From the NCBI GenBank assembly GCA_000165345.1, contig CM000433.1, forward strand, positions 160,001-224,000: 64,000 nt of DNA. The letters run 5' to 3'. Made by a program: the position numbers and the translations under genes. Shown here in pieces: positions 1,392 to 59,246 of the stretch (its first letter is position 1; every line of letters begins with the position of its first letter). Below the pieces are notes generated by a model, which saw only the letters and a program-made list of their open reading frames with translations, searched no databases and was not told the DNA's origin.

Positions 1392-1399
1392 TGGCGCCC
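1392..1399. promoter_or_regulatory. E2F-like GC box TGGCGCCC, ~140 bp upstream of the RUVBL2 start
   Basis: A GC-rich octamer in an AT-rich intergenic region, with a nearby CCGCCAT at 1419..1425. Confidence 0.4.
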
Positions 1400-1702
1400 A
1401 CCACTTTCTTACTATTCCCCGCCATTTATTAATTATTTTTGACCAAAACGCCTTAAAGATTTAACAAATTTTATTGAGGCCATAAAGTATAAGATGGAGT
1501 CGTATAAAACTCAGAAACATGTATTGACTGCTACTGAAAACATGCTAGTAATGTTTTGCTTTAAAAAAAAAATAGTAACAACTTAAACTGATAGAAAAAA
1601 GAAATTTAATTAATCATTAAAAATAGAAAAAATTTTCCTCGAAATCTCGAAGTTAATTATTAAATATATATAGTTTTCTTGACTATTTTGTTGTATCACT
1701 AA

Positions 1703-2786
1703 TTAAGGGTCTAGTTTTAAATATTCATCATCGAAATGATTAATACGCACAAAGCCATCCTCTCCACCAGTAGTAAAACTCATACCATCAGGGGCATAGA
1801 CTAAGGCATTCATAGTACCAAAGTGACCTTTAATAGCGCCAAGCTCAGTACCATAAATCATGTGCATAATTAGAGTCTGAAATTTACCTTCTTGAGTACC
1901 AGTAGTCGTGACATCTTGTGCGAGTTGGCCACCTCCAAGTAAAATGTGTCTCTTTGGGTCTTTTTCTTTGTTAAAGTTTGGAGATATAGAACAGCCATTC
2001 AAAAGACGATTAGTTGTATACTTTCTAATTTCCTTTAAGTTTACCATATCCCATAACTTTGCTGTCATATCATGGCTACATGTTAACATTAAGGTTCTAT
2101 CCTCAGAGAATGAACAGCATGTGAGTAACTTAGAATGGGCTCTAAGAACCTCATATGGCTCCGAACTTTGCCTGATATCCCAAATGTAAATACCTCCATC
2201 TTCATGACCAGAAATAATATTTTGATCAAACATACCCCAGTGAGCTCGTGTGATTCTGCTGTTGATTCCTGTAATTCTAACGCCCTCCATATTTGGATCA
2301 CCGACTTTCTTTATAAGTAACTGACGAGGCTCTGGATAGAATTGGTCTACAGCAACAACAAACTTGTCTTGATTATCATACTTTCTATTGAACTCAACAA
2401 AACGGCAAGTACCGCTCATAGGATAAGAGGAGATTATCTCTGCTCTTTCGATATCAAAGCTCACGCACTTCTGGTCTGCTGAAGACATTATCAAAGTTTT
2501 CCCATCTAATGATGGGTCACAATTCCAAACTGCTGCTCTTCCGGCCTCGTATTTAGCAGCAACCTTTCCATCGGATGTAAATGAACATGCAACTGAACCA
2601 TCCTATAATTAATAATATTAATATTAGTTAAATTAGTTCTCAGTAATTTTCCCAGTATTACTTAAATGGAAAAATTTACAAAATTAAATGACTTACCTTG
2701 CCACATGAAAATACCAGATCTCCGTCAAAATTATAAGTTACAAATGTAATAGGACGCTCATGAGCTTGTAATACTATTGGCCTCAT
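1703..2786 (-). CDS. EIF3I: Translation initiation factor eIF3 subunit I (WD40), two exons
   Basis: Exon 1 is 2786..2697 ([30 protein letters not shown]), with a GTAAGT donor at 2696. The 94-nt intron 2603..2696 ends at acceptor ..attatAG. Exon 2 is 2602..1703 and continues [29 protein letters not shown]... with WD repeats. Both junctions are phase 0. The N-terminus MRPI(V/L)LQGHER is the hallmark eIF3i start. Confidence 0.8.
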
Positions 2787-3331
2787 TTTATTTATTCTTT
2801 TCAGAGTAAGTGTTTATTAAACTTTGAATATAACTCTTAATCAACATATAATTTTTTACTATTTCAAAAATCCCTCTCAACCCGGCAGTCTTCAATTTCA
2901 GGAGAACTCCAAGATTAAGCTAAAATTAGTTCCTGAATCCTTCCTGTATCAAGTATTAAAGTTGCGGCTGCTAAAAAGCCACCTTGATTACTCGAATATT
3001 TCTTTTTTCCCAGTCAAGAGGAAAAAATTTTTCAATAAATATTCCTCTGAATTTCTATTGGCATCTTTTACATTTAATGAGACGGACGTATTTGCCGCGC
3101 GCGGTATTATTGCTATTTATTTGTTATTCAATACCTTATTACAACCAATTTGGAATGCATGCAGAAATGCGGCTACAATTCATAAATATTAAAAATCAAT
3201 TATAAAAGCCTAAACCAAATAATTAAATAAATAAAAGACCACATTTAATCAAATCAAAAACTACGTGCTAAATCACAAATAAATGTGAATTTGCTACAAT
3301 TAATTCTGCTGATAGAACATCAAGCTAATTA

Positions 3332-5530: not shown

Positions 5531-6891
5531 TTTTTAAATATTCAATTTATTTGTGTATTAATACGTTTTTTTGTTTTTTTATTCTGTACTTTACGGTGCA
5601 GGATATTTTAATAAAATCAATTATGCAGAAATAATTTCTGGATTTACCTCTTGTCAGATAAATACTCAGGAATGTAATAATAACAGCAATTCACTCATAC
5701 AACGGTACAATACTCTTTAATCATCACTAATCCATTGAAAATATTCTCCAAAAAACTTCTCCTCACTTTATAAAACTTATTAAAAACTCTTCATCCATAA
5801 ATATGCCCCGCCCAATACCTGCATAAACTACATGTGGCAAGAAAAAAAAAATTAGGAAATATTTGCATAAATATTTGTAAAAGAATCCGATTCCTAATTT
5901 ACTGCTACTAAAAATATTTTTGGGGTATTAATTTAATTATTATTAGAAATATCACACTACAAAAAAAATGATTATAAGACTTCATTTTTCGAGTCTGCAG
6001 ATGCCCCCCTGCACATCCTAATTTGTGTACGAAATCAAAACTCCTACTCTACTCATCTTGAACTAAAAAAGTAAATAGTTTTTCTTTGAATTGGGAAAAG
6101 CAAGAAACATTTTTGGCTGAACCTAAAACCTTTAGCCTAATGCTTTTTGCAAATATTGATAAAAAAAAAAATGCGAAATATTTGTGTGAAATCAATTGTT
6201 TATCATCTCCCTTAATATATCTTTCCATTCATTTATCGTAAAAATCTAAGTAATAAAAGACTAATAGAATTACAAATATTATTTAAATATTTATTCATTA
6301 GCAATGATAAGAAAGCAATACGTACTGAACTGCAATAAGTGTAAGATAAAAGAATAGCCAAAAAAAATATAAACTTTGACAAAAAAAATAATACATTCAA
6401 ATATATCTTGTAAAAGTTTATCAATATTTCGTATTGCTTATCTTTCAAAATGCAGAGACGTCTCCAAAATAAAAATCTGGTCGAATTGCTTGTTACCATG
6501 CTTTTTTTCCTTTTAAAAGCAAATTACATGTAAAATTAGGGATCCCTATTTCAAACCATGTATCATTAACCGCAAGCAATAATGCGATAAACTGCAAAAA
6601 TTCTTACTTCGCATATTTTGCTTGTAAATATTAAATCAACACAGAAAGCCACAATTCTAATACAAAAGTAGAGCTGCTGATCTTATTTTTTTTTGCTAAT
6701 CCGCTCTTACAAAGATTCTTGAAATATGCAAAAAATTGAGTATTTTTGCTCAATGATGAAAATCTTGGTCAGAAAATCATGTAAACAAACCGCTTCTGAC
6801 ATCAAAATTCTGAAACACATCACTACACATTCTACTTTTTCCAACAACTTGCAATCTCTTTTCTTATTCATCTCTCAGAAAACCTATTTTG

Positions 6892-8466: not shown

Positions 8467-9596
8467 TAATTAAATATACACATATATTTATTATACTTAA
8501 ATGTGATTTTTAAGTTATTCAATCAATATCTGTGATTTTTACGATAACGATGCTACTCACTTATACTCTCATTCTAAATTCTCGTTCGAATAATTAACCC
8601 TTCTTTAGAGCTTATGCTAAGTCTCTTCTAACTTATGGGATATCTACTTATACACACACGAAACTACCAAAATCCTTGAAATCTAAAAAATCACAATACT
8701 TTACTTGAACCAAGTTTCATATGTTAATTCCCCTTGTATTTATACTCGTACAAATACAAAAATAAATCTCAATATTTATATATAGCTAGTATATATACTT
8801 ATTTAGCCTTACTCGTACTGACTAATATAAATATTTTTCCGTACAAAAAGAAGAAACTAAACTCCCTCCTGCACTTTATTGCTTCCAACACCTCTGTCGT
8901 GAAGATAATAATTTATTTATTTCACAACTTCATTAATCCAAACTCAACTCTTTCTCGAGAGACCTCTCGTTATTGCGGCAAAGACGACAGTGGATGCGTC
9001 GGGTGCGCCGCCATCTCGTCTTTTATTATTTTATATATAAAATTAATATTAAATATATCTTTTTAATAAACCAAATTTTATTTAATTTTGCTTTCAATAA
9101 CTTTTCACTACGTTTTCTTCACTATTATTCCTTTAAATTTTCACTCCCAATGTTAATTTCAAGTTAATAAATACTTATTAATTGCCAAATAACGTTTGGC
9201 GCCCAAATGTTTGTTAACTTTCATTATTTTTGTCTATACGAAATAAATGGCTCGAATTATAAAAAAACATAATTTCGAAAATGCATGCCAATTTTTGTTA
9301 GTACATGCATTTTTATGTTTTGAATATTTGTCTGCAAAGCACCACATTTAATTCATGTTTTTCCTCCCTAGTACACAAAACACTTTTTGAATTATCTGAA
9401 TAAACTAATAAAAAATACATATATAAATATATCTGTTTTTCCTGTAAATTTTTTAAAGGATGTACAATTTCATTTCATTTCTAGTAGAATTCACAAAAGA
9501 ATGGTTCAGAAAAAGAAGATAAACCTATTGATATCTTCAAAAATTATTGAACTCGAAGCTTATTCAATTAAAATAGTTAATAAAAGTTATACTTCT

Positions 9597-11134: not shown

Positions 11135-11602
11135 CCTGATTATATTTTAATAGATTATGAACTTTATACTTTCTTTTAATTTTGAATAACTTTATAAATT
11201 AATAATATCAAATTAACGCATAACAACTTTGGAATTTTGAGCTAATGTAAACGTTCACTCATGCAAACCCCCATAAATATATTTATTTATTTTTTTATGG
11301 TCAACTTTCTTGAAAAATATGTAATCTCGGTGATTTTTTTTTCGTTTTGGAATTCACAAATATTTACCACTCACCACATAGAAACTAATTTGAATTTGGG
11401 CGGGCACAAAATATAGAGCAATATTTTTTAGAATTTTTTTGTTTGAAAAGATCTAAGCCTATAAGAAGAGGAAGGAGGGAAAAAATAACAAACTGTTGTA
11501 TGATAACTGCTTAAAATAGAATTGTGAGTTATTTTATATGGAGTTCGGCAATATTTTTTTTAATTCCTCTATTTTTTAAAGCAGTATTAATAATAAAACT
11601 TA

Positions 11603-13087: not shown

Positions 13088-13636
13088 TCTTGAAATCAAC
13101 AATAATTTTTTAATAATATTTTGTATTATCTCACCATAATAATTTATTTAATTAACAGTGAATAAATAATTCTAAAAATAAGCTAATATCTTGGATCAAC
13201 TGAATATTAATTCCCTTTTATAGCATTATTTCAAGTTATAAAGCTACTTTATAATTAACAAATTACTTTAAATCACCAAATTTTCAATTTTGTAACAAAA
13301 TTTATACATCAATCATCACAAATTAACAACAGAATCCAAAGTAAAATTAATATCAGCTATGTTAGACTTAATTTGCTCTATAATCTTTGTATTTTTAATG
13401 AACTCTTGTCCATCTTAGGTGTTTTTTAATATATTAAATTATTTTAGGCTGTGATTTCTAAGTGGCCTTAGTATTTATCTGCAAAATAAGATTGTGTTTT
13501 TCATGAATTTTAATTTGTGAATTTTAATATTTGAACAATCCTTTTAATTGACCCAAATGTATTTTCTTGTTATTTCACATGTAATTTATTTTTCCAACTT
13601 GTCTTAGGCAACTCTGGAATTATCAGAAAGAATGCA

Positions 13637-13656
13637 TGGCGCCCGTATTTGCCGCC
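13637..13656. promoter_or_regulatory. E2F-like box TGGCGCCC plus GCCGCC, ~230 bp upstream of the RPA1 start
   Basis: catGGCGCCcgtatttGCCGCCttg in otherwise AT-rich upstream DNA. Confidence 0.4.
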
Positions 13657-13869
13657 TTGAACTAGTTATGAATGACCATTTTAATAAGATAGTAAAGTTG
13701 AATTTTAAAAACTGGATTAATTCCGTTTTTTTCTTTATAAAAAAGAAATGGATGGATATCAGGTAGGGTCAAACTAAAAAGGTAAATAGAGATTATTGTA
13801 AAATAGAGAAGAGTTGCCTGTTAATCATTTTATTTGGTAATCAGTTTGGAAGAATAAAAATATCGGAAA

Positions 13870-16800
13870 ATGAATTCAGCACCAATATGCTCTGACATTC
13901 ACAGTGCCTCATTTGACCTTTTGAGAGCATCCGAGGTTAAAAAGCTTTCTGTTTGTCATGTAACCTCAACAACAACTTTTGAGTCTACTGGTGAAAGCAA
14001 AGTTGGTGGTTTGCATGATTTAAGAATGGGGCCATTAAGTAACAGAGATTTCTGTGGAACATGTGGAAGTAGAAATGAATGCCCAGGTCATATAGGCCAC
14101 ATTGAATTGGAGCTTCCCGTATTTCATCCTCTTTTTTTGGGAAACTTGGTCAGAATTTTAAAATGTTGCTGTTGGCACTGTTGTTGCATAAGACTTTCAA
14201 AAAAGGTATGTAATGGTTATGTAAAAAGGTTTGAGTCCATTGGAAAGAATTCAAATGTAGGTTCCAAAGACTTGGAAATTTACAATGTAAATGATGCGCA
14301 ATCAACCGATGGGATTGCGTCTAACAGTTATTCACTGGAAATTTGGGAAGGAATTAAAAGAGAATTTTTAGATAAAGCATCTAAACACTCTTCTTGCAGT
14401 TCTTGTGGAAATGCATTTAAAGGCAGAGTCAAAGAATCTCAGCTTGGAATTGGTATTACTCTTTCTTGGCCTGAAGGCTCTAAACCCCCAGTAAGCCTAG
14501 GAAGTACTTGGAGCTCAAGCTTAAATCAAGAAGATACTAGGAGTGAATATAGTGACTCAGGATCTGAAAGTGGTAAAGAGCCAGATTCGTATAATTCTGG
14601 TGATTCTGACAACCAGGAAGAAGGCTCTATTAGCAGCAGTCAACAGAGTAATGAATCTAAGAAAAGGAAAAAGAATACAGAAACTAAAAATAAAAGTTCA
14701 GCAAAGTTGTTTAAACGTTCTTATTATGATGACTTCTCAATGAATATTCCTCAAGAGGCTAAGTCTCATACTAAACAAGGAAGAGGAATGATTACCCAAC
14801 ATTTTCAGGCTTTTCAAATAGTGCCAATAATTAAAAATATTTGGGAAAATAACAGAAAAATCTTCGAATTTATATTCCCTATATGTAAATCCCTAGGTTG
14901 GGAAGCGTTCTTTATGTTTACAGTTCCTGTTTCTGCAAATAAATTTAGACCTCTTGGAATGGCTATAGGAAGAAATATATCACTATTGCATCCAAGAACT
15001 TCAGGACTTCTCGAAATTCTAACTGCGAATGACAGGCTGAAGTTCTATGTTGATTTACAAAGAAAGGAAAATACTAATGAATCTTCAATTGAAGGAGAGG
15101 ACAGTTCCAAAACTGGAAAGGGGACAAAAACAATTAAAGAAGAAATTGAAGTTAACTCAAACAACTTGATTTCTTACGTATCTTCATTACAAGAAAAGGT
15201 TAACATGTATTTGGATCAGAGCAAAAGCTTCAAACCATCATCAGCCCCTCCAGGTATTAGGCAATGGCTTGAGAAAAAAGCAGGCGTAATCCGTCAGAAA
15301 ATGATGGGAAAAAGAGTTAATTATTCAGCTAGAACTGTTATTGGACCTGATCCATATCTTGATACCAATGAAATAGGAGTCCCCCTTATGTTTGCTTTGA
15401 ACTTAACTATCCCAGAACGTGTTGGTACTCATAATGTCTCATTAATGGCCAACTTGGTTGAAAATGGCCCAAATTTATATCCAGGTGCAAATAAACTTTT
15501 ATTAGGTGGAATTCTTTATGATTTATCAAGATTAGATCAAAATCAGAGAAAAGCAAAGGCCAGATTGCTTTTATCTTCTGTTTTATCAGCTTCAAACCCA
15601 TTTTTGGGAAACCATCATCCAATTGTTTATAGACACTTGATTGATGGAGATATTGTATTAATGAACAGACAGCCTACTCTACATAGACCTAGTATTATGG
15701 CTCACTATATAAGAATACAACCAAAAGATAACATTATGAGGCTAAATTACGTCAATTGTGGTACTTATAACGCAGATTTTGACGGTGATGAAATGAATCT
15801 TCATCTTCCTCAATCCCTTTTTTCTAGATCTGAAGCAAAATATATTATGGATGCTTCCAGGCAATATTCAGTTCCAAAAAGTGGTGAACCACTTAGAGGA
15901 TTAATTCAAGATTCTTGTATTGGAGGTGCATTTTTAACATCTAAATCAACCTTCTTGAATAGGGAAGAATACTTTCACCTTCTATATACATCTTTGTCAT
16001 TTATATTTGACAAGAAATCTTCTGCGCTTTCAACAAGTCCTATGATTTATTCTTCCCAAGGTCAAGTTATATTTGGATCAAATAACAGATTTTCTGAAGT
16101 TAATTCTCCCTTAGGAAAGGTCAAAATTGATGAATGTATTCTGAGAAATCAATCAAACCTAAATAGCAATGTTCAAAATGGTAATTTTGAAATTGAATTC
16201 TCTCTTGATTCATTGGATACTTGTATTGCTCCAAAAAACATACCAAAAAATGATTCATCTTGTAAAACCGATTTTAAAATCCATTCAAATATCCATAACT
16301 CACATATATTTAATAATTTAATCTTAGAGCCACCAACAATTATCAAACCAATCCATTTGTGGACAGGAAAACAAGTATTTACATCTCTCTTGAAAACTTT
16401 ACTATATAACCTTGTCAGCACTGAACCAAGTGTATATGCAGGGATTAATTTAATATCAAAGAGTAGAACTCCTGGTGATTCATGGAACGGAAAAGAAGAT
16501 GGAGAGAAGGAAGAGGCCGTAGTAATTATCAGAAACAGTGAACTTTTACAAGGAGTCATTGATAAGAACCAGATCGGATCCAACTCGTACTGTTTAGTTC
16601 ACTTATGTACAGAGCTTGTTGGTCCTCTAATTGGAGGCAAACTTTTATCTGCTATTTTCAACCTTTCACAGGTTTATCTTCAAATGAGAGGTTTTACTTG
16701 TAGTATTAGCGATATGTTGCTCACTCCCCAAGCAGAATCTGAGCGTATTGAATTAATGAAGAAATATAACCATGCTTCTGTCTTCATACAAGAGGCATTT

Positions 16801-19800
16801 CAATATTATATTTTTAAGGAGATTGGTGGTAAGAATGATTTAAATAACCAAACTTACTTTTCAGAGAAATTTGATATATATAAAGGGTTCAATTCAAATA
16901 ATGAATTTGAAAAAACTAAAAAAGCTATATTGGAATTGAGAGATTTGAAGAAAGACAAGTATTCTTCCAAAATTTCCAAACTAGGGCAAAAGAACGATAA
17001 TTATCTGGAAATCAATCCTTCAGAGTTGGTTGACTTTTCAGACAATAAAAATCTGACATCAACAGTTCTTGATGTACTAATTGATACGATCAGAAACTTT
17101 AGTGAAAATAGCAATAATAAACTAGAAAAGAAGCTTTTGCTTTTAGAACTTGTTAAATCATTAAAACAACAAAGACTTAGCATCGATGGTTTATTTAAAG
17201 TCGAAGAAAACCCCGATAAGTTCACTCATGACGACTCTGGGATACTTTTCCCAAAAGATGTGTCTACCAATAACTCAAATAAAGATTCAGATCCTTCAAA
17301 AGACTTTCATTCAAACCATGATGCTATTTTATACGATGGTAGTTGGCTCTCTATTGGTAAAATGGAAGAAAGTATTGAAGACAAATTCGATGACGAAGAA
17401 AATGAGTTTAATAACCATGGTGATTTCTTTGCATATCCAAATGAACTAACAAGACGTAAATTAGAGTCTTTGATAGGCAATAAACTTAATACTAAGAAAG
17501 ATTCTCTATTAAAAATCATGGATGCAATTTCAAAGATTGGATTAGGAGATATTACATCAAAGTTAGGTAACTTATTAAAAGGATCTTCTTCTAAGTTCCC
17601 TTTTCCATATAATGGGTTTTCTTCTATGGTTTTAACAGGAGCAAAAGGGTCAAGAGTTAATTATAATATGATTTGTGTTATGCTAGGTCAGCAAGAACTT
17701 GAAGGAAGAAGGGTTCCAATTATGCCAAGTATGAAGACTTTACCATCTTTTGCTACTTATGATTTGGGTTCTAGAGCAGGAGGTCTGATTACAGATCGTT
17801 ACTTGGACGGTCTTCATGCTCAAGAATTCTTCTTTCACTGTATGTCTGGAAGAGAAGGTTTAGTTGATACTGCAGTCAAAACCGCACGTTCTGGATATTT
17901 GCAAAGATGTATATTAAAAGGATTGGAAAGTATGATTGTTAATTATGACGGCACTGTTAGAAGTGAAGACGATACAATTGTTCAATTTATATATGGTGAT
18001 GATGGAATCGATGTCTCTAAATCAAGTTATTTGTCCAAATTGGAGGATCTAGTTAGAAATAAAACTTTGTTGGAAAGAGATGTGAAATTTGAAGAATCTA
18101 TGGGAAATAAATTTTTGAATAATTCTTTTGAGAAGGTATTCAAATATGAAAATAGGCAAAATTTGTTTAAGACGTGTCTAAACCAAAATATCTTATCAGA
18201 TGAAAAATCTTTCAAAAAAGTAAAAAAATCAGTAGAAAGGGATTGTTTTGATAACTTAAATATATCAGAGGATAATAATAAGACCAATGCAATTGATGTT
18301 GAAAATGTTTCATCTACATCTTTAAATGAAATGACTGTCAATTCATTACTACCTACAATCTTAAATGGAGGATCAGTTTCAGAATTATTCCTTAATAGCT
18401 TATCTGAGACAAATATCCAAAAGCTTACTAGAATTTCAAGTGATTCAAAATATTATTCAAACAACAATTATTCTTTCAAAGGAAAAAGAAAATCAAGAAA
18501 CTCGTTAGTTAATGATAAATATAGTGCTGAAGAATACGAATCCATGTTAAACATGGAGAAATTACTTCGTCTAAAGTATATGAAAACTCAAATTTCTCCA
18601 GGAGAAGCTGTTGGTTGTCTTGCTGCTCAATCTATTGGAGAACCGGCCACACAAATGACTCTTAATACTTTTCACTTGGCAGGTCACGGTGCTGCTAACG
18701 TTACTTTGGGTATTCCAAGACTTAAAGAATTACTTCAAACAGGAGGAGATTCAAAAACTCCATACATTTTTATCCCATTATTGAAAGATATTAATTCAAA
18801 GAAAGATAAATCATCCAAATTTGCTGATGAAGAAAATGACAATAAAGATTTTATTAATTATGCAGAAAAGGTTTTGGACTGTTTCAAATCAATCCCATTG
18901 TCAGATATTATTGAAAATGTTGGAGTTGAAAGTTCAATAGTATATGATGAAGATGGAAAATTTAAATCATCCCACAAAAAATCTGCATATTGTTGGAATT
19001 ACGAAATTTCTATCCAATTTTCAGATTTGGAAGTATTTTGTCAATCTTTACCTCATTACAATATGTCATCTTTAATGAATTTGACTCTTTCAAAATGTAT
19101 TAAACCTTTTTTGAGAAATGTAAGTTTAATTCTGGGAGATATTTTAAATAATTATTATTGGAAATTATTGTTATTTATTATAATTCGGAGGCATTCATTA
19201 ATTTTTTTTAAATTAAACTCTAAGTCAATTCTTTTAACTAATTTTACTCAATTAACCCTAATAAGGCTTAATTCTTCGAGATATTAGTTATAAGATTTCT
19301 TTGGTTTTAAAATATAATTTAAATTCATTATTAATGATGAAATAATATTAAAACTTTCGTTCTTCTGTAAAGTTGTCAAATTTCTAATTTTGGAGATTTA
19401 TTAACAGAATGATGGAGAAAACTATACTATTTCTGAAATATGATATAATTAAATTATATTTTAATAATTTTTTTTTCAGAAAAAATGAATTTTGATGGAA
19501 ATCTCCTTGTAATTAATAATATTTTAATTTCCAAAAATATTAAAATAAAATATCTCTATTGAAATTAATTAATAACTTTAATTTTTAGGTAAATAACATG
19601 TACACAATTTCATCGATAAGAAGTAGCAAATTTTCCAACCAAGAAAATGATGAGACAGACGAATTTGTTTCAAAATACGTCTTGGGACACAATAGTGATC
19701 GAAACATTGGGATTTTCAAAGGTGCTTTGAACTCAATGATTCAAAAAGGTAACTTTTCTTTTGGAGGAGGAGGAGGAGGAGGAGAAGGAGGAGAATTAGG

Positions 19801-22540: not shown

Positions 22541-22825
22541 TTTGTTGTTTTGTATTCCTAATTTAATACAATATTATATCATAATCTTCTATTTGGTTTT
22601 AATTACAGATTTTAGTACAGTTTTAATCAGTAAATTATATATTAAAGTTGTTTATTTTCTTAAAGGTTGTTAGGAATTAAAATAAAACCCTCAAACCTGT
22701 TCAAAAAAGCCTCTACTGTATGTTAATAACTCAGAATCAATTAAATAGTATTATTCTACTTTTGTTTTAACTTGTTTGATTTTCTTGTTAATATTTAATT
22801 CGGAGGGTAACGTAAATCAAACTTA

Positions 22826-22833
22826 AGGCGCCA
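22826..22833. promoter_or_regulatory. E2F-like box AGGCGCCA in the divergent promoter between RBBP4 (minus) and the 23042 gene (plus)
   Basis: It is the only GC-rich island in a ~500-bp AT-rich divergent intergenic region. Confidence 0.4.
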
Positions 22834-23041
22834 ATGTGCATGTATTTAAATATGTAGTCAAAAATCTGAAAAATTGATAAATAAATGAATCTAGAGAAGT
22901 TTTTAAACCTTTTCCGGAAATTAAAAATATTTAAAGTTAAATTAGTTGCATTAAAAATAATAGGGTCTGTTTATATAAATTTCGTCCTTTTGAGTCTAAT
23001 TTTATCAAAGAGTATTGTGGGGTGAATAATATATATTAAAG

Positions 23042-24987: not shown

Positions 24988-25370
24988 TGTTTGATTAATT
25001 TCTTAGTTTTGTTTTCATGCACTTAAAAAAAAAGTTTTGGCGGGTAAATGCGCGCATCTAAAAAGAACTTAACGAAACCGATTTTAGCTGTAATATCCAT
25101 GATAAATATTCGTTGAAAATTCATAATTTGAAATAAAAGGTTTTCAAAACTAATCTATATTTCCCCAGTTTGAATTTGAGTACATTAATTGTTCAAAGAT
25201 CTCAAACATTACAAACAAAAATTAAGTTATTCTAAATTAAAATAAGCTCAAAAATATTATCAAAACTATTATTAATTCCAACAAAAAACTTTGTTAATAT
25301 TACGGCAAGTTCAGTATTTAGGAAAGCAACCCATAGATTATTTATTTGTACAAAAAAACATCTTTTTTTC

Positions 25371-29692: not shown

Positions 29693-29768
29693 TAGTGAAT
29701 CAATTTTCTTGTTTCCTAATTGTTAATTAATAGAATTATACAATTTTTTTATAACAATTACTATTAAT

Positions 29769-30407
29769 TTATTTTTTGGAATTGTTATTTTTTCCCTCAA
29801 ACTTACCACTTATTTCGTAAAATGAATTCGAAATTACAGCCTTTCCGCTGCATGCAATATTTAAACCTTTAGAATAGAGTTGCCCATTATAATTTTGCTC
29901 AAAAAAATTGTCTAGAAAATCCTCGGTAATAACTGGAACCTCCCTACCATTAATTGATTTAATTTTTTCATTCAATATCTTAGAAACATTTTTAGTAATT
30001 GGTATACCCACAATTACACCATCTTCACTACACCATGCTGAAGGTGGTACTTCCTTTGGTATTCCGAGCTTTTTCAACCAATATTTGCTAAATTTATGTA
30101 GTTCATTTGTACTAGACCCTCTTGTACGATTTACAGTATTCTTTTCTTTGGTTTTAAATTTCTTCTCGAAATCATTTTTTTCATAAATTCTATTTGCTTG
30201 AATGTTTTCAGCGAATAAATTTAGTTCTCCCGAATTTGGTATATTTTTATTAAGTTCTTGAAAGTTTTTATAATTGAATAATGTACCAAAGTCTCTTGTT
30301 GGAGTAAAATTGTTGTTATTCGATAGACTTTTGCCAGATTTTATGGAAAAAATTATTAAATTAAAATACAAAATTAAATGTTTTTTACATTTCAAAAATA
30401 ATTTCAT
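29769..30407 (-). CDS. Small secreted protein (N-terminal signal peptide), unknown function
   Basis: MKLFLKCKKHLILYFNLIIFSIKSG is a signal-peptide-like N-terminus. It is followed by 185 aa with no recognisable domain but coding-like composition. Confidence 0.4.
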   Translation of the reverse strand: MKLFLKCKKHLILYFNLIIFSIKSGKSLSNNNNFTPTRDFGTLFNYKNFQELNKNIPNSGELNLFAENIQANRIYEKNDFEKKFKTKEKNTVNRTRGSSTNELHKFSKYWLKKLGIPKEVPPSAWCSEDGVIVGIPITKNVSKILNEKIKSINGREVPVITEDFLDNFFEQNYNGQLYSKGLNIACSGKAVISNSFYEISGKFEGKNNNSKK

Positions 30408-35759: not shown

Positions 35760-36225
35760 CTTTAGATGCTTAATAACTTAAACAAAAACTAATCTATGGA
35801 AATCCTTTCAATTTTATATTTCTCTTATTTCGATTAATTTTTTTAATCTTATTATTCAACATGTAGATCAGCTTCATGTTCAGAACCCCACAGCTACCGC
35901 CAAATCCAGGTATGACTTTATTATTTTAAAAACATTGCATGCAGTTTTGCACCTAGAATAAATTGAATAGTTTTTTTTTAGAATGTTCATAGGATTAATT
36001 TAAAATTTTTATTCATTAGTGATTCTTATGTGTTAAAACAAACGATTATATCAGGGTTTGATTTATAAAACACTATATTTTCTGTAATATCATTTTCCAA
36101 ACATCAATATCAGAGAATTCGAATGGAAAGGGCTTACCATCTTTTCTGTTTTGGAAACTATTATTTCTCTAAAAGTTAGAATATAATTTCTTGGAGAGAA
36201 CTATACCATTTTATCTTGTTTTAAA

Positions 36226-39755: not shown

Positions 39756-39763
39756 TGGCGCCA
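39756..39763. promoter_or_regulatory. Perfect palindromic TGGCGCCA, ~220 bp upstream of the DUF155 gene start
   Basis: Exact TGGCGCCA between the LRR gene stop (39808) and the DUF155 start (39538). Confidence 0.45.
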
Positions 39764-39807
39764 AATCGTCAACTTGAAAATTTAAAACTAAATATAGATT
39801 ATTTATG

Positions 39808-46914: not shown

Positions 46915-46990
46915 ACCGCCATCAAACGATTTTATTTTAGGGCCTACATGACCGCCACCCGATACTTTGGCGGCACAGTTTTGGCGGTGT
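46915..46990. promoter_or_regulatory. Cluster of CCGCCA / TTGGCGG boxes, 90-170 bp upstream of the LRR-protein start, in the divergent promoter shared with CDPK
   Basis: ACCGCCATC (46915..46923), ACCGCCACCC (46951..46960), TTGGCGGCAC (46967..46976) and TTGGCGGTGT (46981..46990). TTGGCGG occurs as a direct repeat 14 bp apart, alongside inverted copies. Confidence 0.4.
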
Positions 46991-47480: not shown

Positions 47481-49028
47481 ATGGGTTGTACTCCTTCTAA
47501 AGGGAAAGTTGAATTTACTTCGCGGAAGCGTGAGGAAAACGAAAAGGAAGTAGAAATTAAATCAGTAGAAATTAAAAATGACCTACAAGCAACTCCTGGA
47601 ATGTTCATTACATCAAAAAAAGGCCATCTGTCAGAAATGTATCAAAGAGTTAAAAAACTAGGTTCTGGAGCTTATGGAGAAGTGTTGTTGTGCAGAGACA
47701 AGGTAACTCATGTAGAGAGAGCCATAAAAATTATCCGAAAAACTTCAGTTAGTACCTCTTCAAATTCTAAGTTATTGGAAGAGGTTGCAGTATTAAAATT
47801 GTTAGATCATCCAAATATCATGAAGCTATACGATTTTTTTGAAGATAAAAGAAATTATTATCTTGTTATGGAATGTTACAAGGGTGGAGAGTTATTTGAT
47901 GAAATTATTCATAGGATGAAATTTAATGAAGTTGATGCAGCAGTCATTATCAAGCAAGTATTGAGTGGCGTTACATATTTACATAAACACAACATAGTTC
48001 ATAGAGATTTAAAGCCTGAAAATCTTTTATTGGAATCAAAGGAAAAAGACGCATTGATTAAAATTGTTGACTTTGGTCTTTCAGCCGTTTTTGAAAACCA
48101 GAAAAAAATGAAAGAACGTCTTGGCACTGCATACTATATTGCTCCTGAAGTCCTCAGGAAAAAATATGATGAAAAATGTGATGTTTGGTCAATTGGTGTA
48201 ATATTATTCATTCTATTAGCAGGTTATCCTCCATTTGGGGGGCAGACAGATCAAGAGATACTCAGGAAAGTCGAAAAGGGTAAATACACATTTGATTCAC
48301 CCGAATGGAAGAATGTCTCTGAAGGTGCAAAGGATTTAATTAAACAGATGCTTCAATTTGACTCTCAAAGAAGAATTTCCGCTCAGCAAGCCCTGGAACA
48401 TCCATGGATCAAGGAGATGTGTAGTAAGAAAGAATCAGGTATTGAGCTACCAAGCCTTGCTAATGCTATTGAGAATATGCGTAAATTCCAGAACTCCCAA
48501 AAGCTTGCGCAGGCAGCTCTACTTTATATGGCTTCAAAACTAACTTCTCAAGAGGAAACAAAAGAGCTAACAGATATTTTCAGACATATAGACAAAAATG
48601 GCGATGGGCAGCTTGATCGTCAAGAACTAATTGATGGGTATTCAAAGTTATCTGGAGAAGAGGTTGCAGTATTTGATTTACCTCAGATTGAAAGTGAAGT
48701 AGATGCAATTCTAGGCGCTGCAGACTTTGATAGAAATGGTTACATCGACTATTCAGAGTTTGTTACTGTTGCAATGGATCGAAAATCTTTATTAAGCAAA
48801 GATAAGTTGGAATCAGCTTTCCAAAAATTCGATCAAGACGGGAATGGTAAGATAAGTGTAGATGAACTTGCTTCAGTTTTTGGATTAGATCATTTGGAAA
48901 GTAAAACATGGAAAGAAATGATATCTGGAATAGATTCAAACAATGATGGCGATGTTGATTTTGAGGAATTCTGTAAAATGATACAGAAGCTCTGTTCTAA
49001 TAATGAACCCCAGCTCAAAAAAAATTAA
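47481..49028 (+). CDS. CDPK: Calcium-dependent protein kinase (CDPK1-like): Ser/Thr kinase, junction domain and 4 EF hands
   Basis: MGCTPSKG is a myristoylation (Gly2) and palmitoylation (Cys3) motif. Kinase motifs HRDLKPENLLL, DFGLS and GTAYYIAPEVL are present. The junction/CaM-like domain NMRKFQNSQKLAQAALLYMASKLTSQEETKELTDIFRHIDKNGDGQLDRQELIDGY is near-collinear with apicomplexan CDPK1. There are four EF-hand loops (DKNGDGQLD, DFDRNGYID, DQDGNGKIS, DSNNDGDVD). The gatekeeper is Met (LVMECY). Confidence 0.9.
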   Translation: MGCTPSKGKVEFTSRKREENEKEVEIKSVEIKNDLQATPGMFITSKKGHLSEMYQRVKKLGSGAYGEVLLCRDKVTHVERAIKIIRKTSVSTSSNSKLLEEVAVLKLLDHPNIMKLYDFFEDKRNYYLVMECYKGGELFDEIIHRMKFNEVDAAVIIKQVLSGVTYLHKHNIVHRDLKPENLLLESKEKDALIKIVDFGLSAVFENQKKMKERLGTAYYIAPEVLRKKYDEKCDVWSIGVILFILLAGYPPFGGQTDQEILRKVEKGKYTFDSPEWKNVSEGAKDLIKQMLQFDSQRRISAQQALEHPWIKEMCSKKESGIELPSLANAIENMRKFQNSQKLAQAALLYMASKLTSQEETKELTDIFRHIDKNGDGQLDRQELIDGYSKLSGEEVAVFDLPQIESEVDAILGAADFDRNGYIDYSEFVTVAMDRKSLLSKDKLESAFQKFDQDGNGKISVDELASVFGLDHLESKTWKEMISGIDSNNDGDVDFEEFCKMIQKLCSNNEPQLKKN

Positions 49029-52365: not shown

Positions 52366-53191
52366 TAATTACCATACCCTTTTGTTAAATCCCACTTGCA
52401 AATGATTTTTGAGTACTTTCACTTAACTTTGCGTAATCATAAAAACATTCACATAAATTAGTAAAACCCGCCATTATTCAATTCCTTAGGTTTAACTAAA
52501 ATACATGTAAATTACTTCTATTTGCAAAAATAAGAAATTAATCGATGGATTCCCTCAATATTCTGAATTTAGCATCACTATAAATTTTAATTAATCGTTT
52601 TATTCTTAAATCACTACTATTGTTGGAAAGAGGGGGTTTTGAATTATTTTATCTACCACAATAAATATAAAACATACTGAACAAGTTCGGATATTGAAGA
52701 TTATATAAAATGTGGCTCTTTATGCTACTTCAATCTATATGATTGTTCATATTTTAAATATAACGCAACTTTAGCAACTTTGTGTTAAAAAAAAAATTCG
52801 TTTTTTAATAATAGTCGGTTAACACATAGTTCCTATTGAAATTCATTTCAATTAATATTAACTTAATATCAACCTTCTAACAACTAAATAAAAAGTTAAT
52901 TTAATTTTAATTAGAAATATTTTTTGGGGGTGTTTTAATACATTTTCAAAGGTGGGGATAAGAAAAAAGGTGAGGGAAAAGTTGAGGCTTACCACAAGCG
53001 AGAAAATATTGCGGTAGGTTAAAAAATTATTACCTTTCCAAAATATAGCTGGGCAAGAAAGATATCTTTTTATTTGAATGAAATAGAGAAATGTCAGAAA
53101 ATTTACCCGTGTATACAGAGTTATTTGACGCTCCATGGGTATTTGGGAATTATGAGGTTACAATTGATCAGAATATAGGCAAGTATTACAC

Positions 53192-54221: not shown

Positions 54222-54516
54222 ATTCCCTTCGCTAATACTTGGAGCTTTTCTATTAACACTCACAACTAAAACATAAGTGAATCGCAGTTCATCTGAATCA
54301 ATATTAGAAGATTTTTTAAATAAGTAGTTACGCGATATTACTATTGCAGATGCAGTTACATACAAAAAATCTAGCTTTATAAATAGGTATAAATAAGCAA
54401 ATATAACTAGCAATAGGAATTACTTAGAGTACATTGGTAATTTCTATCAATTATTTTTTTTTTAATTTTATTTCTATCGTTGAGGGAGAAACATTTTTCG
54501 TTCCGATTGTTAGTGC

Positions 54517-54530
54517 TTGGCGCTAAGGCG
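54517..54530. promoter_or_regulatory. TTGGCGC..GGCG GC box, ~70 bp upstream of V-ATPase subunit F
   Basis: gcTTGGCGCtaaGGCGtattg, part of the same motif family. Confidence 0.3.
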
Positions 54531-54967: not shown

Positions 54968-55098
54968 AATATATTAAAGCACTAGCACTTTACCTTTTTA
55001 AGTGATTAATTAGGATAAAATTCTAATTTTAGATACATTAACCTTAGAGAATAAATAGTACCTATTAAACATTTCAATAATTAAATTTTTAATTTCTT

Positions 55099-55695: not shown

Positions 55696-55775
55696 TGTGA
55701 ATGTTTAGAATAATGTAATATGCTTCTAATTCTTTGTTATTCCTGATCTTGCGTATACGTGTATGCAAATTATTT

Positions 55776-55811
<36 letters not shown>

Positions 55812-56086
55812 ATATATATAAATATTTATATATTTGAATTATTGAACTTTATTAAAAGATGAAATTAGCTAAATACTCCAAGATGATTTGAAATATTAAG
55901 TTTATTTTTAAAAATAATTAAATATAATATTGAAATTTGAATTATTTATTTATTAAAAATATTACATGACAAACGTATTTATCACATAATCTGCATATTG
56001 CAAGTGGCCGCCACGCAATCTTCAAAATGAGAAGACCAAATATTCGGAAGTGAAAAAAATATAAATTAACTAATCAAAAATATTTA

Positions 56087-57166: not shown

Positions 57167-57209
57167 GTTCAGTAATAATTAATAGAAAAATGTAGTAAAT
57201 CATGGGCGA

Positions 57210-57217
57210 TGGCGCCA
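57210..57217. promoter_or_regulatory. Perfect TGGCGCCA, ~45 bp upstream of the syntaxin start codon
   Basis: gggcgaTGGCGCCAgccatatg, immediately 5' of the ATG at 57166 (minus strand). Confidence 0.45.
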
Positions 57218-57372
57218 GCCATATGCAAAGTTAAAAAAAAAAATTATTTGCTACGCTACAATGAGATCTAAATCAGTTAGTTCAACCTTATTTGATTCTT
57301 CATCAATTTTATAGTGTATTTCAAATGAATCTATTCTAATCTGATATATCCCGCCATACTAAAAGTTTATTA

Positions 57373-58404
57373 TTAACGAATAATCTTTAAAGCAAATATA
57401 CTTACCTCATTTATTTTCCTTTGTCTGCATCTTACATCATAGGATAGAGATTGGGTTACAGTCTCGAGAAATTCTATCCTTGATTTGAAAAATATAAACG
57501 GCCATTTGCCCCCAAAAGATCTCAGTTCATTAAGCTTTTTTTCGTGCATATTAATTTTTTCTTGTGAAAGCAAACCATTTTTTTCTGTTATTTTATCTAG
57601 CTTATTCAAAATTTCATTTGGGATAGAAACTTTAAATTGGCCTTCAATATTATCTACGACCCATCTTGGGCACAATAATTCTTCCTTATCAATGATATCG
57701 CATATATGATAAGGTTTAATATCGATAATAGGTGTGCCATTAAGTAAATCTATCCCAGATATAAATATACGATTTCCAGAAATTGACTCAATCTTCACAT
57801 TAGAGATGCCTATTCTATTAACTCTATGTGGCGTCCTAGTGGAATATACTCCGGTTGATTTTCCATTCATTCCAGGAGGTCGAATTTTTGAATTTATTGT
57901 AATATCTTGAGGTACGTCATCAAAAATAAATATAATCCATAAATGGCTAAATTCATCCAAACCGAAAATGAAATCTGAATTGAATTCAGGCAATAGTTGG
58001 ATTACCCCACGTGAACTTGGAACTAATACAGATTGTCTTGGAACGCCAAATTTTTCTGTCCAACAGCTATAACAATAGCCAATGGTCCGTACAGGAAAAA
58101 ACTGAATATCATTTTTTGTAATAATGAGATCTTCCACTATTTTTTTATTGTAGACATCCGATACAATATAAAAATTGATGAAACCTCTGCTTCTGTTTTC
58201 TATTTTAAATCTGACTTCGGTATTATTCGAGTTTGAAGTTCCCTTAAATAAATAAATATCCGAGTCCTCTCCTTGTTTAAAGTCATTTATTATTATCGCA
58301 ACAATTTTTTCAATTAGCTTTTCTGATAAAAAATCAGCACTTAACTTTTCCTTTTTTAATTCGAACTCATCAGCATTACATTCCAATTTTAGCCATCTTT
58401 CCAA
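57373..58404 (-). CDS. TRMO: tRNA (adenine37-N6)-methyltransferase TrmO/YaeB family (TsaA-like)
   Basis: FFPVRTIGYCYSCWTEKFGVPRQS and TRTPHRVNRIGISNVKIESISGNRIFISGIDLLNGTPIIDIKPY match the YaeB/TrmO signature (RSPHRPNPIGLS..L.V.G.DLLDGTPVLDIKPY). Two short upstream exons (58512..58405 in frame, and 58628..58563 with a GTATGT donor and ttttatAG acceptor) may extend the N-terminus with MILELSNYLKEVIYKGINLLID+ELNFKIPSNIV.... This is uncertain. Confidence 0.7.
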   Translation of the reverse strand: MERWLKLECNADEFELKKEKLSADFLSEKLIEKIVAIIINDFKQGEDSDIYLFKGTSNSNNTEVRFKIENRSRGFINFYIVSDVYNKKIVEDLIITKNDIQFFPVRTIGYCYSCWTEKFGVPRQSVLVPSSRGVIQLLPEFNSDFIFGLDEFSHLWIIFIFDDVPQDITINSKIRPPGMNGKSTGVYSTRTPHRVNRIGISNVKIESISGNRIFISGIDLLNGTPIIDIKPYHICDIIDKEELLCPRWVVDNIEGQFKVSIPNEILNKLDKITEKNGLLSQEKINMHEKKLNELRSFGGKWPFIFFKSRIEFLETVTQSLSYDVRCRQRKINEVSIFALKIIR

Positions 58405-58735
58405 TTTTATTATTATATTTGTCGATAAGTCTCCATACTCTCTCCGTTTTGGTGCAACTAAACGAATTTGCTCATTTAAAACTATATTACTTGGTATTTT
58501 AAAGTTGAGCTCCTATAAAATTAAACGTTAGTTTAAAAATATTAGATATTTCCTAAACATACATCTATTAATAAATTTATTCCTTTGTAAATTACTTCTT
58601 TTAAGTAATTAGATAATTCGAGAATCATAATTGCTGAATTGAAAACAACGCTGCGCCATTAAAAACTTGATTGGTATGGTCAAAAAAAAAAAAAAAATAG
58701 TTTAAAATAAAATTAAACTCCTAGCCTCTGAATAA

Positions 58736-59094
58736 TTAATCTAGTTTAAAACCTCTTTTCTCTAAATTAGCTTGAGCTCTCAAAATATCTTCTGCAAGAT
58801 CTGCTTTTCCATTAGATACGTTTGAAAATTGAAGTAAAGAAATTGAAATAGATATCACTGAATATAACCCAAAGCCTAGCAAACAAACAAATGGAGACTA
58901 TTAATTACAGTCAATGAACTTTACTTATATATCGCCTTACTTACCGCAATCCAGTAAACTCTAGTGTTGTTCTTTGAATTTGTTCCAAAGTGAAACAAGC
59001 CAAAAATCCAAACAAAAACTGAAAACAATAAGATAGAAACTACTTTTTTTCCATACCCGAAGTAAGGGAGTTGATCTTTTATTTTTCTTTCCAT
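58736..59094 (-). CDS. DPM3: Dolichol-phosphate mannosyltransferase subunit 3 (DPM3)-like small two-TM protein, two exons
   Basis: Exon 1 is 59094..58941 (MERKIKDQLPYFGYGKKVVSILLFSVFVWIFGLFHFG...YWIA), with a GTAAGG donor at phase 1. The 65-nt intron is 58876..58940. Exon 2 is 58875..58736 (VSFGLYSVISISISLLQF..NGKADLAEDILRAQANLEKRGFKLD*). The C-terminal amphipathic tail resembles DPM3 (..QEARADLARRGLRF). Using the immediately upstream GTAAGT donor instead gives a truncated 56-aa product. Confidence 0.45.
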
Positions 59095-59246
59095 TTGAGA
59101 CTTGTCTTTAGAATTTATTTATTTATGGGACCTTTTTTTGTGCCCCTTATGTCATGCGCCTTCTAAATCCAAAGAACAAAAACATTTTTTTTGTATCATT
59201 TATAAATGAACATCATAATTAATAATAATTAAGAAATTTATAACAT

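What the first reader, a model, noticed from the sequence alone, without database searches (positions are those of the whole stretch)
1392..59160. Recurrent palindromic TGGCGCC(A/C) E2F-like GC box in 5' intergenic regions
In a ~30% GC sequence the octamer TGGCGCCA/TGGCGCCC or close variants appears at 1392, 9197, 13637, 22826, 39756 and 57210, always in intergenic DNA. Related CGCCAT/TTGGCGG boxes appear at 1419, 9006, 25037, 46915-46990, 54517, 58654 and 59154. They are typically 45-250 bp upstream of a start codon or inside divergent promoters, and I found none inside coding exons. A palindromic E2F/DP-type site of exactly this form has been reported as the dominant over-represented upstream motif in Cryptosporidium. 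So this is both a likely cis-regulatory code and a lineage clue.
Basis: partly seen in the sequence, partly recalled or inferred. Interest (0 to 1): 0.55.

Follow-up and report, generated by a model that had tools for sequence, protein, structure and literature searches.

The report
Known Cryptosporidium E2F-like promoter box
The recurring GGCGCC/TGGCGG boxes are real, conserved promoter elements of Cryptosporidium parvum, but they are the already published "E2F-like" upstream motif of this parasite, so the finding is correct and not new.

Summary
GGCGCC occurs six times, at the stated places. All six are intergenic, against about 0.16 expected there from shuffles. It is the top composition-corrected 6-mer in intergenic DNA.

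With a wider definition (TGGCG[GC], GGCGGG or GGCGCC), 21 of 23 boxes lie in the 17.5% of the window that is intergenic. Each of the 21 is on the 5' side of an adjacent gene. None lies in the five 3'/3' gaps.

The window is Cryptosporidium parvum (99.96% identical to a C. parvum assembly). 14 of 18 boxes are unchanged in aligned C. ubiquitum intergenic DNA, against 19% of background 6-mers. Boxes also recur in the orthologous promoters of C. felis, C. bovis and C. serpentis.

This is the published E2F-like motif (5'-TGGCGCCA-3', DTTGSCGCCH, TTTGGCGGGAAV), the most over-represented upstream motif in C. parvum and the main motif in its open-chromatin peaks. I found no report of direct E2F/DP binding.

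Two small additions:
- Asymmetric boxes read TGGCG[GC] on the sense strand of the downstream gene in 7 of 7 unidirectional promoters.
- The variant type (GGCGCC or GGCGGG) is mostly kept at orthologous promoters.

Verdict: real, functional, already known, low interest.

The parts
1391..1399 (.). ATGGCGCCC palindromic-core box, 141 bp upstream of the TIP49/RuvB-like start codon (1254, - strand)
1418..1425 (-). ATGGCGGG asymmetric box, 165 bp upstream of TIP49, reading on the gene's sense strand
3091..3105 (.). TTTGCCGCGCGCGGT, a CGCGCG-core variant and the only E2F-like sequence upstream of eIF3I (start 2786, - strand); weaker candidate
5807..5814 (-). TGGGCGGG box 280 bp upstream of the ppGalNAc-transferase gene; CCCGCC is kept in C. 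ubiquitum and C. felis
9005..9014 (-). ATGGCGGCGC box about 610 bp upstream of the RRM-protein gene; the surrounding GGGTGCGCCGCCATCTCG is identical in C. ubiquitum
9195..9206 (.). TTTGGCGCCCAA, the site closest to the textbook E2F form and an exact match to the published DTTGSCGCCH; about 800 bp upstream of the RRM gene. In C. ubiquitum it is changed to AGCGCC
11396..11405 (+). TTGGGCGGGC box in the YIF1 | choline kinase divergent promoter; conserved in C. ubiquitum, with GGCGGG also in C. felis
13636..13657 (.). ATGGCGCCC plus TTTGCCGCCT, a pair 14 bp apart, 218-232 bp upstream of the RNA polymerase I largest-subunit gene. GGCGCC is also upstream of this gene in C. ubiquitum and C. bovis (two copies)
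22826..22835 (.). ATTGGCGCCT (on the - strand) in the ~500-bp divergent promoter between RbAp48/CAF1C (start 22540, -) and a multi-exon gene (start ~23042, +). GGCGCC is kept in C. ubiquitum and C. bovis
25036..25047 (+). TTTGGCGGGTAA, one mismatch from the published motif 4, about 350 bp upstream of the malic enzyme gene. GGCGGG is kept in C. ubiquitum, C. felis and C. bovis
35896..35904 (-). TTTGGCGGT box in the C2-CEP76 | GT92 divergent promoter
39756..39765 (.). TGGCGCCAAA, a perfect palindromic octamer, 222 bp upstream of the DUF155 gene and 51 bp past the stop of the LRR gene. TGGCGCC is kept in C. ubiquitum and GGCGCC in C. bovis
46915..46988 (.). Cluster of four boxes in the LRR | CDPK divergent promoter. 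Two (46915-46922, 46951-46958) read TGGCGG toward the LRR gene and two (46966-46974, 46980-46988) toward CDPK. The 2+2 layout is kept in C. ubiquitum and 1+1 in C. bovis
52467..52474 (-). ATGGCGGG box 103 bp upstream of the ITFG1-like gene; CCCGCCA is kept in C. ubiquitum and CCGCCAAA in C. bovis
54516..54530 (+). CTTGGCGCTAAGGCG box about 70 bp upstream of the V-ATPase F gene, inside a 31-nt block identical in C. ubiquitum
56004..56014 (-). GTGGCGGCCAC box about 313 bp upstream of the 198-aa gene, inside a ~70-nt conserved block. AAGTGGCCGCCAC is also present in C. ubiquitum and C. serpentis
57209..57218 (.). ATGGCGCCAG, a perfect palindromic octamer, 44-47 bp upstream of the SNARE-like gene start (57167, - strand); TGGCGCCAGC is kept in C. 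ubiquitum
57350..57357 (-). ATGGCGGG box about 185 bp upstream of the SNARE-like gene. It is either just past the TrmO stop codon or inside TrmO, depending on the gene model
58652..58659 (-). ATGGCGCA box 24 bp upstream of the TrmO start codon; TGCGCCA is kept in C. ubiquitum
59154..59161 (.). ATGCGCCT, a weak half-box in the 152-bp DPM3 | 952-aa-gene divergent promoter; outside my strict definition

Best explanation
**What it is.** The boxes are cis-acting promoter elements of Cryptosporidium parvum. They belong to the published 'E2F-like' motif family, which has a palindromic form (T)GGCGCC(A) and an asymmetric form TGGCGG(G).

**Shown here.**
- Nearly every gene-upstream interval in the window carries one to four boxes.
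- Coding DNA and 3'/3' gaps carry none.
- The boxes are held constant while the surrounding intergenic DNA diverges across the genus.

**Inferred mechanism.**
- Each box is bound by an E2F/DP winged-helix dimer. Among apicomplexans only Cryptosporidium has kept these factors.
- Each subunit reads one half of the central GCGC/CGCC core, as in the solved E2F4-DP2-DNA complex (Zheng et al. 1999, as cited in PMC3734150).
- Binding marks or opens the promoter. This fits the published single E2F motif per open-chromatin peak.
- The symmetric GGCGCC offers two equal half-sites.
- The asymmetric TGGCGG(G) form is oriented, and in this window it points towards the gene it precedes.
For: **Enrichment.**
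- GGCGCC has 6 intergenic sites against 0.16 expected and 0 genic sites.
- TGGCG[GC] has 20 intergenic matches against 1.5 expected and 3 genic against 6.1 expected.
- An unbiased k-mer scan ranks GGCGCC first among the composition-corrected intergenic 6-mers, with TGGCGG, TGGCGC and ATGGCG also among the top ten.

**Location.**
- 21 of 23 strict boxes lie in the 17.5% of the window that is intergenic.
- All 21 are on the 5' side of an adjacent gene.
- The five convergent gaps hold none.

**Selection.**
- 14 of 18 boxes are unchanged in aligned C. ubiquitum intergenic DNA.
- Only 19% of all 6-mers and 23% of GC-rich non-box 6-mers are unchanged (binomial P about 1e-7).
- Two of the four 'changed' boxes are still present a few bases away.
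- Boxes recur in the orthologous promoters of C. felis, C. bovis and C. serpentis.
- All four other species show 5- to 17-fold intergenic excess over shuffles.

**Identity with the known motif.** There are four exact matches to the published DTTGSCGCCH, all intergenic, and one near match to TTTGGCGGGAAV.

**Literature.**
- E2F-like motifs lie upstream of 161 of 200 C. parvum co-expression clusters (PMC4117751).
- It is the main motif in ATAC-seq peaks.
- Two E2F and two DP genes are present in the genome.
- A binding survey of C. parvum AP2 domains recovered TGCAT, CACACA and G-box motifs, not this one.

**Orientation.** 7 of 7 asymmetric boxes in unidirectional promoters read on the sense strand of the downstream gene.
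Against: - No experiment shows E2F/DP on these sites. The review says most Cryptosporidium regulatory components lack validation, and my searches found no binding assay.
- Only 2 of the 6 GGCGCC sites match the textbook TTTSSCGC form with its T-tract. The local consensus is [A/T]TGGCG[C/G][C/G].
- The genes downstream are not a cell-cycle set. They include a SNARE, DUF155, a V-ATPase subunit and TrmO alongside TIP49, RNA polymerase I and RbAp48.
- In the literature the motif precedes clusters peaking at every time point. That fits a general promoter mark better than a classical E2F switch.
- Some boxes are 600-800 bp from the nearest start codon (9005, 9195).
- The 5'-versus-3'/3' contrast within this window alone is weak. 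Zero of 21 boxes in 1,126 bp of convergent gaps has P about 0.1 (my arithmetic from the lengths).
Confidence: 0.72

Rival explanations
1. The boxes are functional promoter elements, but a protein other than E2F/DP reads them. Candidates are a zinc-finger, Myb or untested AP2 protein, or a general promoter factor. On this reading the E2F label is only a resemblance.
For: - No binding experiment exists.
- The local consensus [A/T]TGGCG[C/G][C/G] usually lacks the T-tract of TTTSSCGC.
- The motif precedes most gene clusters whatever their timing.
- The published expression profiles of the E2F genes do not track some motif-bearing regulons.
Against: - The core matches the [C/G]GCGC[G/C] and GGCGGG sites defined for E2F/DP in animals and plants.
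- Among apicomplexans studied, Cryptosporidium alone is reported to retain E2F/DP, and the motif's abundance was reported there.
- The AP2 domains tested on binding arrays did not recover this motif.
Confidence: 0.15
2. The box is a general promoter-defining or boundary element rather than a regulator of particular genes. It marks where transcription units start, whichever protein binds it. In a compact genome it would separate monocistronic and polycistronic units.
For: - Almost every 5' interval in the window has a box, whatever the gene's function.
- The two same-strand gene pairs separated by only 35 and 76 bp have no box between them. This matches the published picture of one E2F motif at the 5' end of a polycistron.
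- Orientation tracks the direction of the gene.
Against: - This overlaps the main explanation more than it excludes it.
- The same preprint also reports E2F motifs between cistrons.
- The variant type (GGCGCC or GGCGGG) is conserved per promoter, which suggests more than a generic mark.
Confidence: 0.1
3. The boxes are a by-product of composition or mutation in AT-rich intergenic DNA and have no function.
For: The counts within a single 64-kb window are small. The single 7-mer TTGGCGG is not significant on its own.
Against: - No shuffle out of 500 approaches the observed counts.
- Intergenic DNA is less GC-rich than genic DNA (26.7% against 32.7% under the ORF-based models), yet it carries the boxes.
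- The boxes are conserved far above background over 79-83% DNA identity with C. ubiquitum, and they recur in much more distant species.
Confidence: 0.02

Closest known systems
C. parvum E2F-like upstream motifs: motif 3 DTTGSCGCCH (core [C/G]GCGC[G/C]) and motif 4 TTTGGCGGGAAV (Oberstaller et al. 2013, PMC3734150; said there to have been noted earlier on chromosome 6 by Bankier et al. 2003)
   Same: - Same organism and same sequences, including four exact DTTGSCGCCH matches.
- Same upstream location.
- Same co-occurrence with the TGCATGCA (AP2_1) and G-box motifs.
   Different: Nothing essential differs. Three points from this window are not in the papers I read:
- cross-species footprinting;
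- conservation of the variant type per promoter;
- an orientation bias of the asymmetric form.
Canonical E2F/DP binding site TTTSSCGC / TTTSGCGCSAAA of animals and plants (structure: Zheng et al. 1999, as cited in PMC3734150)
   Same: - GC core with a central CGC/GCG.
- Palindromic tendency.
- Promoter location.
- Sites such as TTTGGCGCCCAA (9195) and TTTGGCGCCA (39756) fit exactly.
   Different: - Most sites here have A/T then TGGCG rather than a T-tract.
- GGCGCC is strongly preferred over CGCGCG or GGCGCG.
- The target genes are not a cell-cycle set.
- Most of the E2F partners known in animals are reported absent from C. parvum; only DP1, RPD3 and LIN-53 are retained.
ApiAP2 sites of C. parvum: TGCATGCA (AP2_1) and the G-box G[T/C]GGGG
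   Same: - Short conserved upstream motifs in the same promoters.
- TGCAT/ATGCA lies within 30 bp of 10 of the 21 intergenic boxes.
   Different: - Different sequence and a different protein family.
- AP2 domains have been shown to bind those motifs on arrays; nothing comparable exists for the GGCGCC box.

Membership tests
Published C. parvum E2F-like upstream motif (Oberstaller motifs 3 and 4) | Sequence matches DTTGSCGCCH / core [C/G]GCGC[G/C], or TTTGGCGGGAAV / core GGCGGG | tested here: met
   - Four exact DTTGSCGCCH matches (9195, 13648, 22826, 39756).
- Eight [GC]GCGC[GC] matches, all intergenic.
- TTTGGCGGGTAA at 25036, one mismatch from motif 4.
- Five intergenic GGCGGG.
Published C. 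parvum E2F-like upstream motif (Oberstaller motifs 3 and 4) | Organism is Cryptosporidium parvum | tested here: met
   The window is 99.96% identical over 21.5 kb to GCA_015245375.1 CP044418.1 and to GCA_031892065.1. The best protein hits are Cryptosporidium. The species name of the assembly is from my memory.
Published C. parvum E2F-like upstream motif (Oberstaller motifs 3 and 4) | Over-represented upstream of genes relative to chance and to coding DNA | tested here: met
   - 21 of 23 strict boxes lie in the 17.5% of the window that is intergenic.
- All 21 are 5' of an adjacent gene.
- No shuffle out of 500 reaches the observed counts.
Canonical eukaryotic E2F/DP site | TTTSSCGC consensus with a T-rich flank | tested here: inconclusive
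   There are 6 matches against 1.9 expected, five of them intergenic. Only 2 of the 6 GGCGCC sites qualify. Most boxes read [A/T]TGGCG.
Canonical eukaryotic E2F/DP site | Cognate E2F and DP proteins encoded by the organism | not testable with these tools
   They are not in this window, and no whole-genome search was available. The literature lists two E2F genes (cgd1_1560, cgd6_1430) and two DP genes.
Canonical eukaryotic E2F/DP site | Direct sequence-specific binding by E2F/DP | not testable with these tools
   This needs an experiment. I found none in the papers searched.
Canonical eukaryotic E2F/DP site | Targets enriched for cell-cycle, DNA-replication and chromatin genes | tested here: inconclusive
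   GGCGCC precedes TIP49/RuvB-like, the RNA polymerase I large subunit and RbAp48/CAF1C. It also precedes DUF155, an RRM protein and a SNARE. There are too few genes to test.
Functional cis-regulatory element (any family) | Purifying selection relative to flanking non-coding DNA | tested here: met
   - 14 of 18 boxes are fully conserved in C. ubiquitum against a 19% background.
- Boxes recur in three more distant species.

The most novel reading that the evidence does not exclude
The asymmetric TGGCGG(G)/TGGCGC form may be a directional element that sets which way transcription goes. The palindromic GGCGCC form would then be a distinct, non-directional site. The two would be kept apart by selection because they recruit different dimers.

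Support in this window:
- 7 of 7 asymmetric boxes in unidirectional promoters read on the sense strand (P = 0.016). The count is 18 to 3 over five species, which are not independent.
- The LRR | CDPK divergent promoter holds an outward-facing 2+2 arrangement that is kept in C. ubiquitum.
- GGCGGG upstream of malic enzyme stays GGCGGG in four species.
- GGCGCC upstream of RNA polymerase I, RbAp48 and DUF155 stays GGCGCC in C. ubiquitum and C. bovis.

The papers I read do not report an orientation bias.
Probability: 0.3. Interest if true: 0.4.

Novelty: already known. Interest (0 to 1): 0.2.

Why it matters
Cryptosporidium is a major cause of childhood diarrhoea, and its gene regulation is poorly understood. 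Among the apicomplexans studied, it alone is reported to have kept E2F/DP factors. The E2F-like box is the main candidate for its promoter code.

This window adds no new element. It does give a clean local confirmation that the boxes are under selection across the genus. It also yields two cheap, testable refinements: orientation of the asymmetric form, and conservation of the variant type. Both could guide the design of promoter constructs and the interpretation of open-chromatin data.

Tried and rejected
- **Raw k-mer contrast.** Comparing k-mers between intergenic and genic DNA only recovered AT-rich words. I replaced it with a Markov-corrected scan and per-compartment shuffles.
- **GGCGGGAA with one mismatch.** Not significant (17 against 11.6 expected).
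- **TTGGCGG alone.** Not significant.
- **Lost protein search.** A search with max_evalue 1e-80 returned nothing although the protein is in the collection. One of the three searches was wasted. The repeat with default settings worked.
- **Failed look-up.** The malic-enzyme ORF from its TTG start was not on record because the real start is the ATG at 25392.
- **Non-coding RNA genes.** I checked whether the conserved intergenic blocks are RNA genes. There were no Rfam matches at gathering score and no tRNAs.
- **Composition artefact.** Considered and rejected on the conservation evidence.
- **Position relative to start codons.** In same-strand intervals the boxes sit anywhere from about 0.2 to 0.9 of the way from the downstream start codon (my arithmetic). 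There is no sharp positional rule without transcription start data.
- **Bankier et al. 2003.** The paper could not be opened.
- **E2F/DP proteins.** I could not examine the parasite's E2F/DP proteins. They are outside the window, and no eukaryotic genome collection was searchable.


Full report

Yes.
- TGGCGCC[AC] occurs at 1392, 9197, 13637, 39756 and 57210. That is 7 strand matches against 0.46 expected, and no shuffle out of 100 reaches it.
- The hexamer GGCGCC adds 22827, giving 6 sites against 1.08 expected.
- The window is 31% G+C.

**2. What is the sequence?**

It is Cryptosporidium DNA.
- A calcium-dependent protein kinase ORF (47481-49028) finds Cryptosporidium orthologues first.
- Its exact protein lies on megabase contigs of assemblies GCA_015245375.1 and GCA_031892065.1.
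- The window is 99.96% identical to those contigs over 21.5 kb. It is 79-83% identical to C. ubiquitum.
- From memory, GCA_015245375.1 is C. parvum IOWA-ATCC.

**3. Gene map**

I built the map from long ORFs and from gene calls on matching contigs.
- It runs from a TIP49/RuvB-like gene whose start codon is at 1254 on the minus strand.
- It continues through eIF3I, a ppGalNAc-transferase, an RRM protein, YIF1 and choline kinase.
- Next come the RNA polymerase I largest subunit, RbAp48/CAF1C and malic enzyme.
- It ends with a series that includes the kinase, PP2C, V-ATPase F, a SNARE-like gene, TrmO and DPM3.

Two corrections to the naive ORF map mattered.
- The 2.85-kb stretch 22541-25391 has no long ORF. 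It nevertheless holds a multi-exon plus-strand gene, from about 23042 to 24981. Its short exons are conserved at protein level in four other species.
- Several adjacent minus-strand ORFs (27288-29692 and 29769-35542) correspond to single longer genes in the other species.

With this map, 17.5% of the window is intergenic.

**4. Enrichment and location**

Using the gene models, before those two corrections:
- Dinucleotide shuffles run separately on intergenic and genic DNA give 0.16 expected GGCGCC in intergenic DNA (maximum 2 in 500). Six are observed.
- Genic DNA has 0.74 expected and 0 observed.
- TGGCG[GC] on either strand has 20 intergenic matches against 1.5 expected. It has 3 genic matches against 6.1 expected.

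Other tests:
- An unbiased, composition-corrected scan of all 6-mers in intergenic DNA ranks GGCGCC first. TGGCGG, TGGCGC and ATGGCG are also in the top ten, along with the known TGCATG/GCATGC motif.
- Counting a box as TGGCG[GC], GGCGGG or GGCGCC gives 23 boxes in the window, 21 of them intergenic.
- Every one of the 21 has an adjacent gene for which it is upstream.
- The five convergent 3'/3' gaps (1,126 bp) have none. That contrast alone is weak (P about 0.1), but it holds in every other species examined.
- Distances to the nearest start codon run from 24 to 800 bp, with a median near 190.

**5. Selection**

I fetched the orthologous regions of C. ubiquitum, C. felis, C. bovis and C. serpentis.
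- In global alignments of 17 intergenic intervals with C. ubiquitum, identity is 64%.
- 19% of all 6-mers are fully conserved, and 23% of GC-rich non-box 6-mers.
- 14 of 18 boxes are fully conserved (binomial P about 1e-7).
- Two of the four 'changed' boxes are present a few bases away (46916, 13637).

In the more distant species the DNA no longer aligns, yet boxes recur in the same promoters.
- Upstream of RNA polymerase I: ATGGCGCCC in C. parvum, ATGGCGCCA in C. ubiquitum, ATGGCGCCA and CGGCGCCA in C. bovis, and TGGCGCT twice in C. felis.
- Upstream of RbAp48: GGCGCC in C. parvum, C. ubiquitum and C. bovis.
- Upstream of malic enzyme: GGCGGG in C. parvum, C. ubiquitum, C. felis and C. bovis.
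- Upstream of DUF155: GGCGCC in C. parvum, C. ubiquitum and C. bovis.

All four species show a 5- to 17-fold excess of TGGCG[GC] in intergenic DNA over shuffles, and fewer than expected in genes. The signal is weakest in C. serpentis.

**6. What is known**

This is the published E2F-like motif.
- Oberstaller et al. 2013 list E2F (5'-TGGCGCCA-3') as the most over-represented upstream motif in C. parvum. Their motif 3 is DTTGSCGCCH and motif 4 is TTTGGCGGGAAV. They note it had been seen earlier on chromosome 6 (PMC3734150).
- The window has four exact matches to motif 3, all intergenic, and a one-mismatch match to motif 4.
- The motif lies upstream of 161 of 200 co-expression clusters. The AP2 domains tested on binding arrays recognise other motifs (PMC4117751).
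- It is one of the top two motifs within 100 bp upstream of lncRNAs (PMC7840661).
- It is the main motif in sporozoite ATAC-seq peaks (bioRxiv 10.1101/2025.01.17.633476).
- A 2025 review lists two E2F and two DP genes. It stresses that most regulatory components in this genus lack experimental validation (PMC12246861).
- My searches found no direct binding experiment.

**7. Mechanism**

Shown here: the boxes are promoter-side, selected, and of two forms.

Inferred:
- An E2F/DP winged-helix dimer binds the GC core, each subunit reading one half. This follows the crystal structure cited.
- Binding marks the promoter.

Fit to the textbook site is partial. Only two GGCGCC sites carry the T-tract of TTTSSCGC, and the local consensus is [A/T]TGGCG[C/G][C/G]. 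The downstream genes are not a cell-cycle set. A role as a general promoter mark is therefore at least as likely as a classical cell-cycle switch.

**8. Small additions**

- Orientation. In unidirectional (same-strand) promoters, 7 of 7 asymmetric boxes read TGGCG[GC] on the sense strand of the downstream gene (two-sided P = 0.016). Over the five species the count is 18 to 3, but orthologous sites are not independent.
- The LRR | CDPK divergent promoter has two boxes facing each gene. The layout is kept in C. ubiquitum, and as one plus one in C. bovis.
- The variant type tends to be kept at a given promoter.
- TGCAT/ATGCA lies within 30 bp of 10 of 21 boxes, against 3.2 for random intergenic positions.
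- The papers I read do not report an orientation bias.
- The sample is small, and a genome-wide count is needed.

**9. Controls**

There are no Rfam families and no tRNAs in the window, so the conserved blocks around the boxes are not known RNA genes.

**10. Verdict**

The feature is functional but already described, so interest is low.

Noticed in passing
window 23042-24981 (+ strand): A stretch with no long ORF holds a gene of about ten short exons. It has a signal-peptide-like N-terminus (MFKKKLNLFLSFILQFMTLLIII). Each exon is conserved at protein level in C. ubiquitum, C. felis, C. bovis and C. serpentis, and there is no Pfam match. It is unusually intron-rich for Cryptosporidium.
   Followed up: partly
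window 13870-21022; 27288-29692; 29769-35542: Adjacent same-strand ORFs are pieces of single genes. The RNA polymerase I largest subunit is 1805 + 474 aa here against one 2227-aa product in the reference annotation. The others are a C2-CEP76 gene (1564-1819 aa in other species) and a 799-876-aa gene. The gaps between the pieces are probably introns, not promoters.
   Followed up: partly
window, within 30 bp of boxes at e.g. 13630, 22838, 46886, 46995, 56000, 57225: TGCAT/ATGCA, the core of the known AP2_1 motif, lies within 30 bp of 10 of 21 intergenic boxes, against 3.2 expected for random intergenic positions. Several copies (CCATGCAAA at about 46995, TATGCAAA at about 57225) are conserved in C. 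ubiquitum.
   Followed up: partly
window 55960-56030: A ~70-nt intergenic block is nearly identical in C. ubiquitum. Its centre, AAGTGGCCGCCAC, is also present in C. serpentis. That is much more conservation than a single box needs. There is no Rfam match.
   Followed up: partly
window 52920-53020: Upstream of PP2C lies a conserved purine-rich block with G-box-like words (TTGGGGGTG, GGTGGGGATA, GGTGAGGGAAAA). It is nearly identical in C. ubiquitum and resembles the known AP2 G-box G[T/C]GGGG.
   Followed up: no
window 62106-62140 and 29693-29768: Same-strand neighbouring genes are separated by only 35 and 76 bp, with no box between them. They are candidates for the dicistronic transcripts reported in C. 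parvum.
   Followed up: no
window 55785-55830: A (TA)n / (TATA)n microsatellite is present here but largely absent from the aligned C. ubiquitum sequence. TATATATA is strongly over-represented in intergenic DNA generally.
   Followed up: no
window, all intergenic DNA: Poly-T/poly-A runs of 8 or more are about three times over-represented in intergenic DNA even after composition correction (90 against 31 expected). This matches the poly-T motif reported in ATAC-seq peaks.
   Followed up: no
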